A stretch of DNA of 8,881 nucleotides, taken from the IMG/VR virus record IMGVR_UViG_2700989170_000005; one strand, written 5' to 3'. The notes under the pieces are model-generated. The model saw only the letters and a program-made list of their open reading frames with translations, was not told the DNA's origin and did not search any database. The stretch comes from a virus. Its lineage: Duplodnaviria; Heunggongvirae; Uroviricota; Caudoviricetes. Shown here piece by piece: positions 13 to 8,881 of this stretch. A program made the position numbers and the translations under genes. How positions within the stretch are numbered: the stretch's first letter is position 1; every line of letters starts with the position of its first letter.

Positions 13-414
13 TTAATTCGTGTACGTGATCTGGTACGTGATTTCCGCCATCGCCCAGGTGGCCATCTCATTATCACGTTGATAGTTAAAACCGAGTGGG
101 ATCATGGTGTCGATGAGTCCGGAAAGCACCGGAATATCCTTCATGGCCGGAAATATGGTGTTCTCCATCCACGTATCCAGCTCAGAATCCGGCGCCTGTG
201 CACGGACGAAAACGGCAATATGCAGAACAGCCTGCCAGTCGTCCTCATCCGTCATTTTTCCGGTGTACTGCGCATCACTCAGCCACACCGCCACGGCGGG
301 CAGTTCCTGCGCATCAATAAATGCCGGAAGCCCGTCAAAAAACGTGGCGCTGTCTCCACACTGTTCCCGAAGGCGTGCCAGCACGCTCTGACGGATTTGT
401 GTGTGTCGGTTCAT
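13..414 (-). CDS. U: Tail terminator protein (lambda gpU-like), 133 aa
   Basis: ORF 13..414 on minus strand. The translation MNRHTQIRQSVLARL...ATFFDG.PA..D...PAVAV.L..A.YTG......WQA.LHI.VF..AQ.PDSELD.WME..I.P.M.DIP.LS.LI..M...G..Y.RD......W......TY.ITY is colinear with lambda gpU as recalled from memory (131 aa). ATG at 412-414 overlaps the Z stop TGA at 411-413 (ATGA coupling). Confidence 0.9.
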   Translation of the reverse strand: MNRHTQIRQSVLARLREQCGDSATFFDGLPAFIDAQELPAVAVWLSDAQYTGKMTDEDDWQAVLHIAVFVRAQAPDSELDTWMENTIFPAMKDIPVLSGLIDTMIPLGFNYQRDNEMATWAMAEITYQITYTN

Positions 415-2894: not shown

Positions 2895-3242
2895 TTACGG
2901 CAGCGCTGCGTGACTCAGGGCACTGCCGGCAAAGGCATTCGCCTTTTTGTGTGTATCCACTCTCTCAGGCCAGTGGATGGCCTCCGTCGCAAAGGTCCCC
3001 GACTTGTAATACGTCAGCACCGTCTCTGTACCTTCAAGCGGCAGTACCAGTATGCCAACCACATGGCCTGCCTTCTGTCCGTCCCAGACCACCAGTTTCC
3101 CGGTATCCTCATCCAGCATCAGGGGCGTCAGAGCCGGTGTTGCCGAGGAAATCCCGCTGCAGCCTGTGGCGGTATGGGCCGGATCATTACCGGCAAAAAT
3201 ACGTACTTCCGCACGCTGTTCAGTGATGGTTTTCGTTACCAT
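2895..3242 (-). CDS. D: Head decoration protein (lambda gpD-like), 115 aa
   Basis: ORF 2895..3242 on minus strand. DPAHTAT, TPLMLD...KLV.WDG, VGIL, YYKSGTF, FAG.A match lambda gpD (110 aa). ATG at 3240-3242 with GAGG about 11 nt upstream. Confidence 0.9.
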   Translation of the reverse strand: MVTKTITEQRAEVRIFAGNDPAHTATGCSGISSATPALTPLMLDEDTGKLVVWDGQKAGHVVGILVLPLEGTETVLTYYKSGTFATEAIHWPERVDTHKKANAFAGSALSHAALP

Positions 3243-3278: not shown

Positions 3279-3947
3279 TCATGGCATGGCCATGAGCATT
3301 TTCACGTCCGCATCACCGTCTGCTGACGTCTGTGGCACGCCACCCTGTACCGCTGCCGGTGAATGGTTCGCCATGNNNNNNNNNNNNNNNNNNNNNNNNN
3401 NNNNNNNNNNNNNNNNNNNNNNNNNNNNNNNNNNNNNNNNNNNNNNNNNNNNNNNNNNNNNNNNNNNNNNNNNNNNNNNNNNNNNNNNNNNNNNNNNNNN
3501 NNNNNNNNNNNNNNNNNNNNNNNNNNNNNNNNNNNNNNNNNNNNNNNNNNNNTTTTCAGCCTGCGCCTCTGCCCCTTTTGCCTCATCCAGGGCCATAATC
3601 TGATCACGAAGTGAGGGTCCGGCATTCGCCTGCGGTGAAGCAGCCAGAATCGGACGGGCTTTTTCCACCGTCATCTCCGGCATCGCCGCCAGCGTTGCCG
3701 CCAGTTGTTCACGTCCTTTCGCCTCTTCACATGCCATAATGCGATCGGCTTCACTCTGCGCAGATACACCAGATTGTTGCGGTGCCGCCACGGCCAGAAT
3801 CGCCCGGGCCTGCTCAACGCTCATACCCTGTTGCCCTGCCAGCATCGTGGCCAGTTGTTCACGTCCTTTCGCTTCCTGACACGTCAGGATCCCCATCACT
3901 CGCTGGTTCTCCTGCGCGGCAGCCTCCGTTGCAGTTAATTGCGGCAT
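3279..3947 (-). CDS. nu3: Nested in-frame scaffolding protein (lambda Nu3-like), initiating internally in C at ATG 3945-3947; spans the assembly gap
   Basis: In-frame ATG at 3945-3947 (C residue 302, ..GGTMPQLTATE..) is preceded by a strong AGGAGG Shine-Dalgarno with a 4-nt spacer (minus strand ACAGGAGGCACTATG). This matches the lambda arrangement, where Nu3 is translated from an internal start in the C frame (..GGRMTKETQ..). Downstream sequence is the repeated helical scaffold-like motif. Confidence 0.5.
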   Translation of the reverse strand: MPQLTATEAAAQENQRVMGILTCQEAKGREQLATMLAGQQGMSVEQARAILAVAAPQQSGVSAQSEADRIMACEEAKGREQLAATLAAMPEMTVEKARPILAASPQANAGPSLRDQIMALDEAKGAEAQAEXXXXXXXXXXXXXXXXXXXXXXXXXXXXXXXXXXXXXXXXXXXXXXXXXXXXXXXXXXXXMANHSPAAVQGGVPQTSADGDADVKMLMAMP

Positions 3948-4850
3948 AGTGCCTCCTGTATCGTGTGTGTTCAGCGTCGCAGCCATCACGCTGATGGCGT
4001 CCGACGCATTGATTAATTCATCCGCCAGTTCGGCCTCAATACCGGACTGACCTTCAAAAACGGCGGCCTCTGTTCCCATAACCGCATCCACAGATAAACC
4101 GGTATACATCGCCACTTTTTCAGCAAACATCCGGCGCGCCGCATCAATGCGCTGCTGCATGTCCTGGCGAACCTTTGCTGGCAGGGATTCAAACTGATTG
4201 CCATCCACCTTGTGCGATCCGGCGTAAATCAGCGTGATATCCACACCGGCCTGTGCCAGATGACCGGCATAGCTGACATGGCCCATCATCACCCCAATGG
4301 AGCCGATACGGGATGTCTGGGTAACCAGCCGTCGGGAGCAGGCCGATGCCAGTAACATGGCGGCTGAACAGGCCGTGTCATTGCACAGTGCCCAGACAGG
4401 CTTCAGCTGCCGGAGACGGTAAATCATGTCAGCGCAGTCAAACGCGCCGGTGGCCTGCCCGCCAGAACTGTCAATGTCCAGCAGTACGCCCCGTACCTGA
4501 GTGTCCGCCATTGCCTGCTGAAGACAGGCGACAATGCCGTCATAGCCAGTCATTCCGGAAAATGGCCGCATGCCACCCAGCCGGTGTACCAGCGTGCCGG
4601 TCACCGGCAGTACAGCAATACCGTTCACCACCCGGTAAACACGGGCAGGTCGTTTGCCTCCGGCCATGTACTCGTCCGTTTCAGCCAGCATCCCGGGAGC
4701 GTCAAGCTGTACCTGCTGTTGCGGTACCGAAAGGCTTGCTGCGCCCATCTCACGCCCGAGCGCGCAAAAGAAAACCCGCGCATAGGCGGGCTCCAGAAGC
4801 AGCGGCTCATTGAATGCCGCAGCGATAATATGTGAAAGATTACGTCTCAC
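3279..4850 (-). CDS. C: Prohead protease / scaffold fusion (lambda gpC-like, S49/ClpP-type protease N-terminal domain), interrupted by an assembly gap; GTG start; true length unknown
   Basis: Minus-strand frame open from GTG 4848-4850 (GGAGA/GAGGAG Shine-Dalgarno upstream) to TGA 3279-3281, reading through the N run. N-terminal 300 aa are colinear with lambda gpC: AFNEPL.LEPAYARVFFCAL, NGIAVLPV.GTLV, SGMTGY.GI...QQA, GAFDCAD.I.R.R..KPVWAL.ND..CSA..LLASA.SRRLVTQT.R.GSIGVMM.H, ITLIY.GSHKVDGN, MFA.KV..YTGLSV, EAAV..GQ..I.A.LADEL.N..DAI.VM. The 5' end overlaps the portal 3' end as in lambda. Confidence 0.85.
   Translation of the reverse strand: MRRNLSHIIAAAFNEPLLLEPAYARVFFCALGREMGAASLSVPQQQVQLDAPGMLAETDEYMAGGKRPARVYRVVNGIAVLPVTGTLVHRLGGMRPFSGMTGYDGIVACLQQAMADTQVRGVLLDIDSSGGQATGAFDCADMIYRLRQLKPVWALCNDTACSAAMLLASACSRRLVTQTSRIGSIGVMMGHVSYAGHLAQAGVDITLIYAGSHKVDGNQFESLPAKVRQDMQQRIDAARRMFAEKVAMYTGLSVDAVMGTEAAVFEGQSGIEAELADELINASDAISVMAATLNTHDTGGTMPQLTATEAAAQENQRVMGILTCQEAKGREQLATMLAGQQGMSVEQARAILAVAAPQQSGVSAQSEADRIMACEEAKGREQLAATLAAMPEMTVEKARPILAASPQANAGPSLRDQIMALDEAKGAEAQAEXXXXXXXXXXXXXXXXXXXXXXXXXXXXXXXXXXXXXXXXXXXXXXXXXXXXXXXXXXXXMANHSPAAVQGGVPQTSADGDADVKMLMAMP
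3376..3552. other. Assembly gap: run of 177 N
   Basis: Directly visible as 177 consecutive n characters, located inside the C/nu3 coding region immediately 3' (in gene orientation) of the tandem repeat array. Confidence 0.99.
3555..3917 (-). repeat. Imperfect tandem repeats, period about 141-150 bp, at least 3 copies, inside C/nu3; each encodes a ..R.MG/A....EAKGREQLA..LA...M.VE.AR.ILA..PQ.. unit
   Basis: A perfect 23-nt direct repeat gccagttgttcacgtcctttcgc occurs at 3700-3722 and 3850-3872 (period 150). A third, diverged copy at about 3560-3600 (gccccttttgcctcatccagggccataatc) abuts the N run. Protein-level copies: ENQRVMGILTCQEAKGREQLATMLAGQQGMSVEQARAILAVAAPQQ / SEADRIMACEEAKGREQLAATLAAMPEMTVEKARPILAASPQ / SLRDQIMALDEAKGAEAQAE-[gap]. 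Confidence 0.8.
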
Positions 4851-6433
4851 GTGATGTTGTCTCCTCTTCCGGCCTGCGACTCTCCGCTATCTGCTGCTGA
4901 TACGCCTGGGCTATCCACACCGGACGTGAGAGTCCGGCTTTTTCGCGCTCTGCGGATTCCCTGACCTGCTGGCGGAAAATGTCCTGATAATCTTCGCCCA
5001 TCAGTGCCAGTTCTTTCTCATACGTGCTCAGTCCGGCCTCAATGCGCATCACCGATTCCTGGACCTCCTTGAGCCCGTCAATGGCCATTCTTCCGGAGCT
5101 AATCCACTCTGCCCGTGACCAGGCTGAACGCGCCTGGTAAAAATCAAAACGCGCCCGTGGCGGACGAATAATCCCCCGAAGAAGCGCCTCTTCCAGCCAG
5201 CAGGAAAACATCTGCGTGGCCAGCCGGGCCGCAATAAATTTTCGCCGCCCCATAAAATAGCGCCACGACTCATTGGCGGAGGCGCGGGCACTTGAGTAAC
5301 TGACCTTCGAGTAATCACGGGACAACTGTTCGTAGGAAACGCCAAGACCGGCTGCAATATACCGCAGCAGCGCCTGTTCAAGCGCCGAAAATCCATTGTC
5401 TGAATCCTGCGCTGTCTGCAGGTTCAGCGCATCGCCAGGAAAAAAGGTGCGGAATTTTAACACCGCCCAGCGTCACGTTATTCGTGTCATACCAGCGGGT
5501 GAACTTCTCCAGAATATTAATAAGCGGATTATCCTGCTGACCTTGCGGTGCCCCCGCGATATATTCAAATGCCTTTTCGGTATCAAGTTCACTTTCGATT
5601 GTGGCTGCATACATCGCCTTCACAATGGCCGACTGAAGCTGCGTGGCCTGCAGGGAGTCCAGCATCTTCATCCGCTCCATTACGCTGTAAAACTGATTAG
5701 CCCCACGGGTCTGCCCGTCCTCCACCGGCTCAAAAATATGCAGCATGGCCGGACGCCCGGTGGGAAGCTCACGCGGGATCCGCTCCCAGCGTCCGGCACC
5801 AGAGAACGGAAAATCATCCTCACAGATATGGTACGCAATCGCCCGCCCATACCGATCGACCTCAACCCCGGCCCGCAGAAAGTGGTTCCCCATACCGTGT
5901 CCTGGCGTGTCCACCCGTTTCGGACTCACGGCTTTAAAACGCGTACGGAATAACTGCGTGGTTTCCGTATCCCAGACCGGCTGCACAAAGATTTCGCCGT
6001 TAAAGGCATGCACGCCCACCCCTTCACGGATAAATTCCGTAAACGTGCGTTTCCCTTCCACGTCGATCTCGCCAAACATTCCTTCTGCGTATTCCGACCA
6101 GGCTGCTTCCACCTCCCCGACAAAACTTTTTGCCGTGGTCTCCCGCATCCCCAGCCAACGCCAGTTCAGACGGTAGCTGATAAGAAACATGTGCCCGACG
6201 ATATGATCCTTATGCAGGGCCACCGCATTAGCCGCGATACCGTTATTGCGCACCAGATCATCTGCCCGGGCATTCCCCAGACGCAATGCAGGCAACAGGG
6301 CCGCATCGGCACTCTGCGCCGGTGGTAACCACTCTGCCATTTGCCCGCCAAATCCTGCGCCGCCTCCGTTGTAGCTGAGACTCTCACGAAGCGGAACGCC
6401 GTTCACATCAATCAGGACAGGCGTTCGTTTCAT
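4840..6433 (-). CDS. B: Portal protein (lambda gpB-like), about 530 aa if one base is removed from the A6/T6 run at 5440-5445; as given, split by a +1 frameshift into ORFs 5378..6433 and 4840..5463
   Basis: N-terminal ORF (351 aa) and C-terminal ORF (207 aa) are both colinear with lambda gpB (533 aa): GGG.GFGGQ, DAALLP....GNARADDLVRNNG.AANA..LH.DHIVG, PRELP.GR....H.FEPVEDGQTRGAN.FYSVME.MKMLD.LQ.TQLQSAIVKAMYAATIESELDT, then PGD.LNLQTAQD.DNG.S..EQ.LLRYIAAGLGVSYEQLSR.Y...SYS.ARASANESW.YFMGRRKF, SGRMAIDGLKEVQE.VM.IEAGLSTYEKE. The frames switch at ..GGVKIPHLF | (F)PGDALNLQ.. (lambda: GGAKVPHLMPGDSLNLQ). ATG at 6431-6433 overlaps the W stop (ATGA). Confidence 0.9.
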
Positions 6434-6633
6434 AACCTCACTCCCAGCGGTCGGCGGCGTCGGGTCGTACCCAGAACCGACTCCGCATCGTTGATCGCAC
6501 GGTTAAGCTCATTCAGGGACGCTGCCGTATATTCGATCCTGCGACCGTCTTTCTGTACCGACACAACCCGTTTACCGGTTAATAAATCAAGGCGCGCCTG
6601 ACGCAGCGCCTGCAGTTCAGCGACTGTAACCAT
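6430..6633 (-). CDS. W: Head-tail joining / head completion protein (lambda gpW-like), 67 aa
   Basis: ORF 6430..6633 on minus strand. L.LLTGKRV..VQKDGRR.E.TA.S...L...I is colinear with lambda gpW (68 aa, ..[26 protein letters not shown]..). ATG at 6631-6633 directly follows the A stop TGA (6634-6636); the GGAGGAG in the last A codons serves as Shine-Dalgarno. Confidence 0.9.
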   Translation of the reverse strand: MVTVAELQALRQARLDLLTGKRVVSVQKDGRRIEYTAASLNELNRAINDAESVLGTTRRRRPLGVRL

Positions 6634-8544
6634 TCACTCCTCCGGACAGCTTCGCTGCCAGTTCTTCAAGGGTCGGTTGTGCAGTTGCATCCTTGCGGGA
6701 TGCAACTGCACAGCCAGATCAAGTTGCCAGCGTTGCACGGACACACGTAATGCCGCATAGGCATACACCAGGCAGTCCAGCGCTTCGTTACGCCGCTTTT
6801 TGTTATCCCACAACAGACGCATCTTTCCTTTTTCCCACTTTTCCACCAGTTCCTCCGCCACCAGTTGTTGTGCCTCTGTCTGCGAAAAAATCTCCGGATT
6901 ATCAGGAAAGCGGATGGCATACGATGTGGCCTCATTCACAGGGGTGGGATCGGCCTTCATTCGGGCATAGAGAATTTCTTTTGCGGTATCCGTCCCCACC
7001 TCACACAGATACACACCCCGCTGATTGCGGGTTTTCGGCATGGTGATCACCGGCTTGCCATAGACAGAGGCACCTTTTACCGGCAGTACCCGGAAAATAC
7101 CGTGTTTTTTTGACCTCTGATACACGATTTCGCCATCGATCCCCCCGATATCCCAGCAGACACGGGAAATGGTCATTTCGGTACCGTCTGCATGGCGGTA
7201 TTTTTTATTGATCGCCGCATCCACACGTAACAGCGTCTCTTCCTCATCAGGACGTCCCATGATGATGATTTTATCCACCAGAAAGGCTTCCTCTCCCGGA
7301 GCCCACCCCCAGACATACATCTCAAAACGGTTTCGCTGCGAGTCAATGCCCGCCGTCAGATAAACCACCCGGACAGGCACCGTTGCCGTGTAAGGCACAA
7401 CCTTATCCATCAGTACCTGGTGATCGAGTTTTTCGCCCACGGCCTCTTCCCAGGTCTCGCCCAGCGTGGTGTTCACAAAAGTTTTCACGCCGTTGGGATC
7501 TTTCAGTGCATCCAGCCAGTCACAGACTATCTGTACCCTGGTGGTGAACGGACTGTACGCCGTCCATATATGGAAAGTGATGGAGCGCGGCGGCGGAATT
7601 TCATTACCCGAAGCACTGAAAAACGTCAGACCGTCACACGTCCACATCCCGGTATTGTCACAAATCCAGCGCCCCCCGGTCTGATCAAGTTCAGACTGAC
7701 GGATCACGCAGCCATTATGTTCACACAGGTAATACACCGTTTCCGGTTTACCCTTCTCCCATTTCAGGCCAAACGACGTCGCATCATCGCCAAACTTCAG
7801 ATACTGCTCCTCCCCGCAATGAGGGCAAGGGACATAAAACCGCATGAAATGCGCAGATTCATTCGCAGCTTTTTCAATCTGACAGGAGCCTTTAATTTTT
7901 GGCGTTGAACCGCGTATGGATTTTGGCCATACCGAACCTTCAATACGTTTATCGCCAAGCAGTGTTGGCGAACCTTCTTTTTCCACATCCGGTTCAAACG
8001 AGGAGAGTTCGTCATAGCAGACCACATCGACAGATTTTTCACGGTAGTTTTTGGCAGCAGCACCACCCAAACACCAGAACCCCACACCAGAGGAAAAACG
8101 CTTCAGTGTGAGCGTATTATCCCGGTGTTTCCGGCCCAGCCAGGGAGAAAGTTTTTTCAGGCAAGGAACATCACGAATTGTTGCTTCCACGTGAGACTTC
8201 ATAAAATCTTCAGCAGCTGAGTCCGTCGGCTGAAAAAGAAGAGTGTTGCGGGATTTGTGCTCAATAAAATACCCGATCACACCAAGCACCATTTTTGTAT
8301 AACCAACACGGGCAGATTTAATCAGGTTAACTGTACGAATCTCGTCATTGCCCATGCAGTTCATGATGGCGACCTGAAACTGCAGCGTTTTCCATTCCCC
8401 CTCACCGTATGACGATTCTTTAGGCAGGTAATAATTTTGATCGGCCCATTCTACAGCCGTCACCGGCAATACCCTGACCAGTGGCTGCAGTGCGATAGTG
8501 ACTGCCACCATCATATTACTCAGTTGTTGTTCTGATATATTCAT
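6634..8544 (-). CDS. A: Terminase large subunit (lambda gpA-like), 636 aa from ATG at 8542-8544
   Basis: Minus-strand ORF. The track starts it at TTG 8601, but ATG 8542-8544 yields MNISEQQ.., matching the lambda gpA N-terminus MNISNSQ... Extensive colinear identity follows: TAVEWAD.NYYLPKES.Y.EG.W.TL.FQ.AIMN.MG.D.IR.VN..KSARVGY.KM.LGV..YFIEHK.RNTL, HRDNTLT.KRF..G.GFWCLGG.AAKNYREKSVDV..YDEL, SPT.LGDKRIEGSVWPKSIRGSTPK, HFMRF.V.CPHCGEEQYLKFGD, FYLCEHN.CVIRQ.ELD, TFHIWTAYSPFT, KTFVNTTLGETWE, YLTAGIDSQ, RSKKHG.FRV.P.KGASVYGKPV, TDTAKE, EAQQL.AEE.VEKW, DSKKRRNEALDC.VYA.AALR.S..RWQLDL. Confidence 0.95.
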   Translation of the reverse strand: MNISEQQLSNMMVAVTIALQPLVRVLPVTAVEWADQNYYLPKESSYGEGEWKTLQFQVAIMNCMGNDEIRTVNLIKSARVGYTKMVLGVIGYFIEHKSRNTLLFQPTDSAAEDFMKSHVEATIRDVPCLKKLSPWLGRKHRDNTLTLKRFSSGVGFWCLGGAAAKNYREKSVDVVCYDELSSFEPDVEKEGSPTLLGDKRIEGSVWPKSIRGSTPKIKGSCQIEKAANESAHFMRFYVPCPHCGEEQYLKFGDDATSFGLKWEKGKPETVYYLCEHNGCVIRQSELDQTGGRWICDNTGMWTCDGLTFFSASGNEIPPPRSITFHIWTAYSPFTTRVQIVCDWLDALKDPNGVKTFVNTTLGETWEEAVGEKLDHQVLMDKVVPYTATVPVRVVYLTAGIDSQRNRFEMYVWGWAPGEEAFLVDKIIIMGRPDEEETLLRVDAAINKKYRHADGTEMTISRVCWDIGGIDGEIVYQRSKKHGIFRVLPVKGASVYGKPVITMPKTRNQRGVYLCEVGTDTAKEILYARMKADPTPVNEATSYAIRFPDNPEIFSQTEAQQLVAEELVEKWEKGKMRLLWDNKKRRNEALDCLVYAYAALRVSVQRWQLDLAVQLHPARMQLHNRPLKNWQRSCPEE

Positions 8545-8839
8545 CGAGTAAATCCGGTAATTTATCCCCCGCACGCGCGCACTGATTCGCTCCCTTAGCA
8601 ATAAGGATTTTCAGATGATCAATATGACGCGGCGTTAAATCCGGGAACTGTCGTTGCATGGACAAAGGAATGGAGTCAAGCGTACTGGATAAAGCCATCG
8701 CCAGCTTACTAAGGGCAAAAATACAAAATCCGGTATCGATAAGATTTCCTTTTGACACCTGATTTTTTAACTGCTGTGCGACAGCCTGTTCTGCGGTCAG
8801 TTCCCATCTGGCAATGAGTAGTTTGAGGTGTACTGGCAA
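8516..8839 (-). CDS. nu1: Terminase small subunit (lambda Nu1-like), C-terminal terminase-interaction portion only (about 98 conserved aa); no credible start codon in the window; 5' part apparently out of frame or missing
   Basis: Minus-strand frame 8516..8839 translates to ..RWELTAEQAVAQQLKNQ.......TGFCIFALSKLA..L.S.LD.IPLS.QR.FP.L..RH.D.LK..I.K......A..D.L..LL.EYI, colinear with the C-terminal half of lambda Nu1 (..RHRLTRAQADAQELKNAR...ETAFCTFVLSRIAGEIASILDGLPLSVQRRFPELENRHVDFLKRDIIKAMNKAAALDELIPGLLSEYIEQSG). The stop TGA at 8516-8518 overlaps the 5' end of A by 29 nt, as Nu1/A overlap in lambda. The track's start is a TTG without Shine-Dalgarno; in-frame stops at 8849-8851 and 8867-8869 close the frame upstream. 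Confidence 0.7.
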   Translation of the reverse strand: MPVHLKLLIARWELTAEQAVAQQLKNQVSKGNLIDTGFCIFALSKLAMALSSTLDSIPLSMQRQFPDLTPRHIDHLKILIAKGANQCARAGDKLPDLLDEYIRTTTE

Positions 8840-8881
8840 TAGCGGACACTACCATTTGTTCTTTTTTTAAGCAGCCATCTG

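What the first reader, a model, noticed from the sequence alone, without database searches (positions are those of the whole stretch)
5431..5463. Portal gene (gpB-like) broken by a +1 frameshift in an A6 (minus-strand T6) homopolymer
Both portal halves are strongly lambda-like but lie in different frames. The switch maps exactly to the run aaaaaa at 5440-5445. With six bases the minus strand reads CAC CTT TTT TCC TGG (..HLFSW.., terminating 22 codons later at 5378). With five bases it would read CAC CTT TTT CCT GGC GAT GCG CTG AAC CTG (..HLFPGDALNL..), which matches the lambda portal ..HLMPGDSLNL.. and restores a single portal of about 530 aa. This is either a homopolymer sequencing error (the assembly is clearly draft, see the N run) or a genuine inactivating mutation in a decaying prophage. 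A programmed frameshift is not known for portal genes and the out-of-frame tail has no conserved sequence.
Basis: partly seen in the sequence, partly recalled or inferred. Interest (0 to 1): 0.5.

Follow-up and report, generated by a model that had tools for sequence, protein, structure and literature searches.

The report
Real frameshifted portal pseudogene, Shigella prophage
The broken phage portal gene is a real one-base insertion, not a sequencing error: it is shared by Shigella flexneri genomes in general and sits in a defective lambda-like prophage that carries other lesions, so it is an ordinary, already-deposited pseudogene.

Summary
On the minus strand a T6 run (plus-strand A6, 5440-5445) splits a lambda/phage-21-type portal gene into a 351-aa ORF (5378-6433) and a 3' remainder (4840-5439). 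Removing one T gives a 530-aa portal. It aligns end to end with the solved lambda gpB portal and differs by one residue from intact portals in E. coli prophages, which carry T5.

It is a true mutation. The exact 351-aa truncated product is on record on at least 1000 contigs. It is deposited under Shigella flexneri names with four GenBank protein accessions, one named for strain 301. All 10 loci fetched carry T6, including chromosome-sized records such as AE014073.1 (strain 2457T). None of 5426 complete E. coli genomes has it.

The window is 100% identical to 2457T over 5.3 kb. The prophage is defective in other ways:
- IS600 has removed the 5' part of the small terminase gene Nu1; the DNA upstream of Nu1 is replaced by IS600.
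- A second one-base deletion rewrites the last 30 residues of the large terminase.

I found no recoding signal. This is an ordinary prophage pseudogene and of low interest.

The parts
5440..5445 (-). T6 homopolymer (A6 on the plus strand). It is the site of the one-base insertion relative to T5 in intact relatives.
   Evidence: Sequence read. Alignment with CFSAN029787 and FDAARGOS_943 (T5) and phage 21 (TTTTC). It is one of four one-base indels against L004 across 5.3 kb.
4840..6433 (-). Whole portal pseudogene (lambda gpB / phage 21 gene 4 type), 1594 nt instead of 1593.
   Evidence: Relatives annotated 'phage portal protein' are 1593 nt. The repaired translation is 530 aa and differs by 1 aa from the CFSAN029787 portal. 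PDB 8k38 lambda portal, E = 4e-213.
5378..6433 (-). 5' portal ORF of 351 aa: residues 1-331 native, 332-351 an out-of-frame tail, then a stop.
   Evidence: Pfam PF05136, profile 2-288 of 354. This exact protein is deposited as 'Head-tail preconnector gp5 [Shigella flexneri]'.
4840..5439 (-). 3' portal remainder in the other frame, about 199 codons. The mechanical ORF 4840-5463, with a GTG start, is an ORF-calling by-product and not a separate gene.
   Evidence: Pfam PF05136, profile 288-354. Deposited as a separate 207-aa CDS, named for Shigella flexneri 2a str. 301 among others.
6634..8544 (-). Large terminase subunit (gpA type), 636 aa. A second lesion is a one-base deletion within a small multi-base change near 6707. 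It replaces the last 30 residues with 24 out-of-frame ones.
   Evidence: Indel against L001 and L004. C-terminal comparison ...LDLAVQLHPARMQLHNRPLKNWQRSCPEE* against ...LDLAVLAASRKDATAQPTLEELAAKLSGGVNGYSR*. Pfam GpA_ATPase and GpA_nuclease.
6430..6633 (-). gpW head-tail joining gene, intact (67 aa), immediately upstream of the portal.
   Evidence: Annotated relatives. PF02831 in the related loci.
8516..8824 (-). 3' remnant of the small terminase gene Nu1. The N-terminal part is missing.
   Evidence: Homology to intact prophages starts at window 8824, which is 201 nt into Nu1 of L004. Pfam PF07471 matches only profile positions 85-163 of 164.
8825..8881 (-). Terminal 57 bases of an IS600 copy that truncates Nu1. 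The draft contig ends inside it.
   Evidence: Window rc 1-57 equals L005 3553-3609. L005 2360-3610 is 99.6% identical to 'IS3-like element IS600 family transposase'.
3279..4850 (-). gpC-type S49 prohead protease/scaffold gene. It overlaps the portal 3' end by 11 nt and is interrupted only by the assembly gap.
   Evidence: Annotated relatives. Intact 501-aa product in complete Shigella records.
3376..3552 (.). Scaffold gap of 177 N. It stands for 111 bp of ordinary gpC coding sequence in complete genomes.
   Evidence: The two flanks map to L005 ...8881 and 8993....

Best explanation
The window is part of a defective lambda/phage-21-like prophage of Shigella flexneri. In its portal gene a T5 run gained one T, most likely by replication slippage; that step is inferred. 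Translation therefore leaves the portal frame after Phe331, adds 20 unrelated residues and stops. The product lacks the last 199 of 530 portal residues. By inference it cannot build the dodecameric portal ring on which a lambda-type prohead assembles and through which DNA is packaged.

The mutation is real and inherited. It is present in every related Shigella locus examined, in two locus variants that differ from each other elsewhere, so it predates their split.

It is one of several lesions. An IS600 insertion has removed the 5' part of Nu1, and in this sub-lineage a second frameshift has rewritten the C-terminus of the large terminase. By inference the element cannot make particles, and the portal lesion has no consequence of its own today.
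For: 1. Relatives carry one base fewer exactly here. CFSAN029787, FDAARGOS_943, RMDEC364, VL46 and VL40 are 99.8-99.9% identical over the portal, have T5 and carry an annotated intact 1593-nt portal. Phage 21 has TTTTC.
2. The repaired product is 530 aa. It is 1 aa (G445S) from the CFSAN029787 portal and aligns end to end with lambda gpB, PDB 8k38.
3. It is not an artefact. The exact 351-aa truncated protein is indexed in 2587 blocks and seen on at least 1000 contigs from NCBI, ENA and Logan. It has GenBank entries AAN42336.1, AAP16213.1, ABF04804.1 and ADA73063.1, named for Shigella flexneri including strain 301.
4. All 10 loci fetched have T6 and none has T5. They include the chromosomes AE014073.1, CM001474.1, CP007037.1, CP026765.1 and LR213452.1.
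5. An exact 44-mer scan of species-representative genomes finds S. flexneri SFBU1023 and one 4.44-Mb record labelled E. coli.
6. None of 5426 complete E. coli genomes matches the T6 context without a gap.
7. The window is 100% identical to AE014073.1 over 5329 bp.
8. T6 occurs both in loci with the terminase deletion and in loci without it, so it is the older lesion.
9. Other lesions are present: Nu1 cut by IS600 and a frameshifted terL C-terminus.
10. No recoding signals were found. The downstream fold has z = -0.49 and there is no Rfam match.
Against: - No read data for this particular draft assembly could be inspected, so its own base call rests on agreement with other assemblies.
- No expression or protein data were examined. 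The loss of function of the truncated product is inferred from what is known of lambda-type portals, not shown.
- The loci were retrieved by exact identity to the truncated protein. They cannot reveal Shigella strains that might carry T5.
Confidence: 0.95

Rival explanations
1. Homopolymer sequencing or assembly error in a draft genome: the real sequence is T5 and the portal is intact.
For: The window is a draft scaffold with a 177-N gap. It ends inside an IS element. Homopolymers are a classic site of base-calling errors (general knowledge).
Against: The same T6 is in 10 of 10 separately deposited loci, including chromosome-sized records. The truncated protein is on at least 1000 contigs from three assembly sources. 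The window shows no other indel against AE014073.1 in 5329 bp.
Confidence: 0.01
2. Recoding: a +1 ribosomal slip on CUU UUU U, or RNA polymerase slippage on the T6 run, restores the frame in a fraction of products, so some full-length portal is still made.
For: A P-site tRNA-Phe on UUU could re-pair with the overlapping UUU one base downstream. That would give exactly the ancestral ...HLFPGD... sequence (read). CUU U is the slip site of prfB (general knowledge).
Against: - Intact relatives have a single ORF with T5 or TTTTC, so the split arrangement is not conserved.
- There is no in-frame stop in the A site and no Shine-Dalgarno-like sequence directly upstream.
- The downstream fold is no better than shuffled sequence, z = -0.49, and there is no Rfam element.
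- The review PMC5009743 describes bacterial transcriptional slippage on runs of 9 A or T, and the word 'portal' does not occur in the text held for it.
- With Nu1 truncated there is nothing useful for a portal to do.
Confidence: 0.02
3. The truncated N-terminal portal fragment has been kept for a host function, for example interfering with portal ring assembly of incoming lambdoid phages.
For: The 351-aa ORF is unchanged in a very large number of S. flexneri assemblies. The surrounding head and tail genes are still largely intact.
Against: - The uniformity is explained by recent common ancestry. The whole 5.3-kb segment is 99.8-100% identical among the loci.
- The loci were selected for identity of this very protein, so the sample is biased.
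- No promoter or other feature sets the fragment apart.
- There is no test of selection.
Confidence: 0.02

Closest known systems
Phage lambda portal protein gpB (PDB 8k38) and phage 21 gene 4 portal
   Same: Same family (Pfam PF05136) and the same W-portal-C-D-E gene order. The repaired product aligns over 523 residues with lambda gpB. The DNA is 93.5% identical to the phage 21 portal gene.
   Different: Here the gene is interrupted by a one-base insertion after codon 331, so no full-length product is encoded.
Intact prophage portals of E. coli CFSAN029787, FDAARGOS_943, RMDEC364, VL46 and VL40
   Different: They have T5, a 530-aa portal, a full-length 169-aa Nu1 and a 642-aa large terminase.
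The same locus as deposited in Shigella flexneri genomes (AE014073.1 = 2457T; strain 301; three further GenBank protein accessions)
   Same: Identical T6 allele and identical 351-aa and 207-aa split products. The window is 100% identical to AE014073.1 over 5329 bp.
   Different: Nothing at the portal. The window differs from AE014073.1 only by a cluster of 22 substitutions in gpU and one other base.
prfB-type +1 programmed ribosomal frameshift (CUU UGA C)
   Same: A CUU U / UUU U sequence on which a +1 slip would restore the frame.
   Different: There is no A-site stop codon, no upstream Shine-Dalgarno stimulator, and no conservation of the split arrangement among homologues.

Membership tests
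Lambda-family phage portal protein (Pfam PF05136) | Significant match to the family profile over its full length | tested here: met
The two fragments cover 2-288 and 288-354.
Lambda-family phage portal protein (Pfam PF05136) | End-to-end similarity to an experimentally solved lambda-type portal | tested here: met
   PDB 8k38 'Portal protein B', E = 4.4e-213, query 5-527 against chain 7-530.
Lambda-family phage portal protein (Pfam PF05136) | Position in the head module between gpW and the gpC protease | tested here: met
   The order terL-W-portal-C-D-E-FI-FII-Z-U in the window matches annotated prophages and phage 21.
Lambda-family phage portal protein (Pfam PF05136) | One uninterrupted reading frame encoding the whole protein (a functional gene) | tested here: not met
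   The frame is broken at the T6 run and a stop follows at 5378-5380. It is a pseudogene of this family.
Sequencing or assembly artefact | Allele confined to one assembly and absent from independent assemblies of the same lineage | tested here: not met
   T6 is in 10 of 10 loci from separate records, in at least 1000 contigs, and in two species-representative genomes.
Programmed +1 ribosomal frameshift site | Split-frame arrangement and slip site conserved among homologues | tested here: not met
   Homologues outside S. flexneri have a single ORF with T5 or TTTTC.
Programmed +1 ribosomal frameshift site | Stimulatory elements: a slow or stop codon in the A site, a Shine-Dalgarno-like sequence just upstream, or a nearby structure | tested here: not met
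   The A-site codon is UUU or UCC and no SD-like sequence lies within a few bases upstream. Fold z = -0.49. No Rfam match.
Programmed +1 ribosomal frameshift site | Measured frameshifting efficiency above background | not testable with these tools
   This needs a reporter assay or proteomics.
Transcriptional slippage site (bacterial) | A long A or T run; about 9 in described bacterial cases | tested here: not met
   The run has 6 bases. PMC5009743 describes slippage 'on runs of 9 As or Ts'.
Phase-variable (contingency) homopolymer locus | Tract length varies among closely related isolates | tested here: inconclusive
   All 10 loci have T6. However, they were retrieved by identity to the truncated protein, so T5 variants would not have been returned.
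Defective (cryptic) prophage | Loss or disruption of more than one function essential for particle production | tested here: met
   Portal frameshift. Nu1 truncated by IS600. terL C-terminal frameshift.

The most novel reading that the evidence does not exclude
The T6 allele may not be simply dead. Either low-level +1 slippage on CUU UUU U still yields some full-length portal, or the 351-aa N-terminal fragment is retained because it interferes with portal assembly of superinfecting lambdoid phages. The second would be a prophage-remnant defence. Nothing found here supports either reading, and they are not formally excluded only because no expression or selection data could be examined.
Probability: 0.03. 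Interest if true: 0.55.

Novelty: already known. Interest (0 to 1): 0.08.

Why it matters
It matters little beyond correct annotation. The split portal should be labelled as one pseudogene of a defective S. flexneri prophage. It should not be labelled as two genes, and it should not be 'corrected' as a sequencing error.

The allele is shared by all S. flexneri loci seen here and absent from 5426 complete E. coli genomes. It could therefore serve as a small lineage marker, and it orders the lesions: the portal frameshift and the IS600 insertion in Nu1 came before the terminase deletion. It opens no biological question.

Tried and rejected
- **Sequencing error.** Rejected. The same allele is in many separately deposited assemblies.
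- **IS element hidden in the N run.** FDAARGOS_943 has an ISEc60 in the matching prophage, so I considered this. It is rejected. That IS lies between FII and Z, and complete Shigella records have 111 bp of ordinary gpC sequence at the gap.
- **Two paralogous copies per Shigella genome carrying T6.** Not supported. The exact 44-mer occurs once in each of the two representative genomes. The two locus variants look like strain-level alleles of one locus.
- **Programmed frameshift or slippage.** No stimulators, no conservation, and the run is too short.
- **Promoter or terminator scan around the break.** Nothing beyond chance.
- **Comparing substitutions before and after the break as a test of relaxed constraint.** There was 1 substitution in 990 nt against 4 in 604 nt among the 10 loci. 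I abandoned this test. The numbers are tiny, and the loci were selected for an identical N-terminal protein, which biases it.
- **Literature search for a description of this specific pseudogene.** Nothing specific was found.

Full report
**What is in the window.** All the genes discussed lie on the minus strand and form the head module and the start of the tail module of a lambda/phage-21-like prophage. In order they are:
- the last 57 bases of an IS600 copy (8825-8881)
- a 3' remnant of the small terminase gene Nu1 (8516-8824)
- the large terminase gene (6634-8544)
- gpW (6430-6633)
- the portal gene (4840-6433)
- the gpC-type S49 protease/scaffold gene (3279-4850, holding a 177-N gap at 3376-3552)
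- gpD (2895-3242) and gpE (1809-2837)
- FI, FII, Z and U

This follows from the ORF list, from annotated relatives and from Pfam matches.

**Checking the observation.** The minus strand reads CAC CTT TTT TCC TGG, with six T at 5445-5440. The upstream ORF (5378-6433) encodes 351 aa. Residues 1-331 are portal sequence and residues 332-351 (SWRCAEPADSAGFRQWIFGA) are out of frame. The other frame carries the rest of the portal down to 4840.

The Pfam lambda-family portal profile PF05136 is split at exactly this point. Profile positions 2-288 lie in the first ORF and 288-354 in the second.

Deleting one T gives a 1593-nt, 530-aa ORF.

**Which state do relatives have?** Against 5426 complete E. coli genomes the portal region matches 1881 records.
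- The five closest strains (CFSAN029787, RMDEC364, VL46, FDAARGOS_943, VL40) are 99.8-99.9% identical. All have a 1593-nt gene annotated as an intact phage portal protein.
- Direct alignment shows T5 in CFSAN029787 and FDAARGOS_943, and TTTTC in phage 21.
- A 64-base query centred on the run finds no gap-free match in any complete E. coli genome.
- The repaired window protein differs from the CFSAN029787 portal by one residue, G445S, downstream of the break.

So the ancestral state is T5, and the window carries a one-base insertion.

An exact-sequence look-up of the 351-aa truncated product, out-of-frame tail included, finds it in 2587 index blocks and on at least 1000 contigs from NCBI, ENA and Logan assemblies.

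It is deposited as 'Head-tail preconnector gp5' of Shigella flexneri under four GenBank protein accessions (AAN42336.1, AAP16213.1, ABF04804.1, ADA73063.1), with one name specifying strain 301. The 207-aa downstream ORF is deposited separately.

All 10 loci retrieved contain the T6 context and none the T5 context. They include the chromosomes AE014073.1, CM001474.1, CP007037.1, CP026765.1, CP026792.1 and LR213452.1. AE014073 occurs together with the strain name 2457T in 43 papers, and PMC9769918 uses it as its reference chromosome.

An exact 44-mer scan of one genome per species finds two records: S. flexneri SFBU1023 and a 4.44-Mb record labelled E. coli ECMA0423.

The window itself is 100% identical to AE014073.1 and to WACK01000005.1 over 5329 bp spanning the portal. 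A base-calling error cannot recur identically across this many separate assemblies. The insertion is a genuine, inherited mutation of the S. flexneri lineage.

**Relative age.** The 10 loci fall into two variants.
- One variant (AE014073.1, CP007037.1, WACK01000005.1, CP178302.1, and the window) has a 636-aa large terminase.
- The other (CP026765.1, LR213452.1, CP026792.1, CM001474.1 and two more) has the 642-aa form found in E. coli.

The two differ by about 10 substitutions in 5.3 kb. Both have T6. Both have the same IS600/Nu1 junction, judged from gene coordinates.

The portal insertion and the IS600 insertion therefore predate the split of these variants, and the terminase lesion is younger. 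The pseudogene is nevertheless young in absolute terms, because only one substitution separates it from intact E. coli copies.

**The prophage is defective in other ways.**
1. Homology to intact prophages begins 201 nt into Nu1. The remnant matches only positions 85-163 of the 164-position Nu1 profile. The DNA upstream of that point is IS600. From general knowledge of lambda, the missing part is the DNA-binding domain of Nu1, and cos lies just upstream of Nu1, so cos is presumably lost or displaced from this position as well.
2. Near window 6707 a six-base stretch, TGGCGG, is replaced by five bases, AGTTG. This swaps the last 30 residues of the large terminase for 24 unrelated ones. From general knowledge of lambda gpA, its extreme C-terminus is the prohead (portal) binding segment.
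3. In some strains the tape-measure or gpL genes are not called as proteins. This hints at further strain-specific decay. I did not follow it up.

**Mechanism.**
- Shown: one extra T in a T5 run, a frame change after Phe331, a stop 21 codons later, and loss of the last 199 of 530 residues.
- Inferred: the insertion arose by replication slippage. The truncated product cannot form a working portal ring. The prophage cannot assemble or fill heads in any case, given the terminase lesions.

**Recoding considered.** A +1 slip of tRNA-Phe from UUU to the overlapping UUU would recreate the ancestral protein exactly. Several things count against it:
- Relatives do not conserve the split arrangement.
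- There is no A-site stop codon or adjacent Shine-Dalgarno-like stimulator.
- The downstream RNA folds no better than shuffled sequence, z = -0.49.
- No Rfam family matches.
- The review PMC5009743 describes bacterial transcriptional slippage on runs of 9 A or T, and the word 'portal' does not occur in the text held for it.

I rate recoding at about 2%.

**Comparison with what is known, and novelty.** The gene belongs by sequence to the lambda-family portal proteins but fails the test of an uninterrupted frame. It is a pseudogene of that family inside a cryptic prophage. The same split gene is already deposited in GenBank under four S. flexneri protein accessions, one named for strain 301. A literature search found no paper devoted to it, which fits its ordinariness.

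**Verdict.** Novelty: already known. Interest: low.

Noticed in passing
window 6634-6715 (minus strand): There is a second frameshift in the window. The 3' end of the large terminase gene has a six-to-five-base change (TGGCGG to AGTTG) near 6707. It replaces the last 30 residues with 24 unrelated ones. Four of the 10 Shigella loci have it (AE014073.1/2457T, CP007037.1, WACK01000005.1, CP178302.1) and six do not.
   Followed up: yes
window 8516-8881: Nu1 (small terminase) is truncated by an IS600 copy. Only profile positions 85-163 of 164 remain. The draft contig ends 57 bases inside the IS. The mechanical ORF 8516-8839 (TTG start) runs into IS sequence and is not a real start.
   Followed up: yes
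window 3376-3552: The 177-N scaffold gap inside gpC stands for only 111 bp of ordinary coding sequence in complete genomes, so the gap size is an estimate. I found no reason for the assembly break there.
   Followed up: partly
window 61-298 (gpU): A cluster of 22 substitutions in about 240 bp separates the window from AE014073.1 (2457T) and from the second locus variant, while the rest of the window is nearly identical. It looks like a recombination or gene-conversion patch. A second lambdoid remnant with an identical U protein exists in S. flexneri (L020, LR213455.1).
   Followed up: partly
L009 / L016 (CP178302.1): A 4.44-Mb chromosome labelled 'Escherichia coli strain ECMA0423' carries the Shigella-type locus: T6 portal, IS600 in Nu1 and the terminase deletion. 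It also has its large terminase split into two called genes. It may be a Shigella or an enteroinvasive strain filed under E. coli.
   Followed up: no
L017-L019 (CP182555.1, CP058589.1, CP102209.1), locus 11908-15980: In some S. flexneri strains the tape-measure gene (L018, L019) or gpL and neighbouring tail genes (L017, L019) are not called as proteins. This suggests additional strain-specific pseudogenes in the tail module of the same prophage.
   Followed up: no
L002 and L004 (NZ_CP065615.1, FDAARGOS_943): This E. coli genome holds two copies of the intact relative. Both have the identical portal protein (WP_197939909.1), at 771 kb and at 2.01 Mb. The second copy carries an ISEc60 between FII and Z. 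Several of the closest E. coli strains have 2-3 places matching the portal.
   Followed up: no
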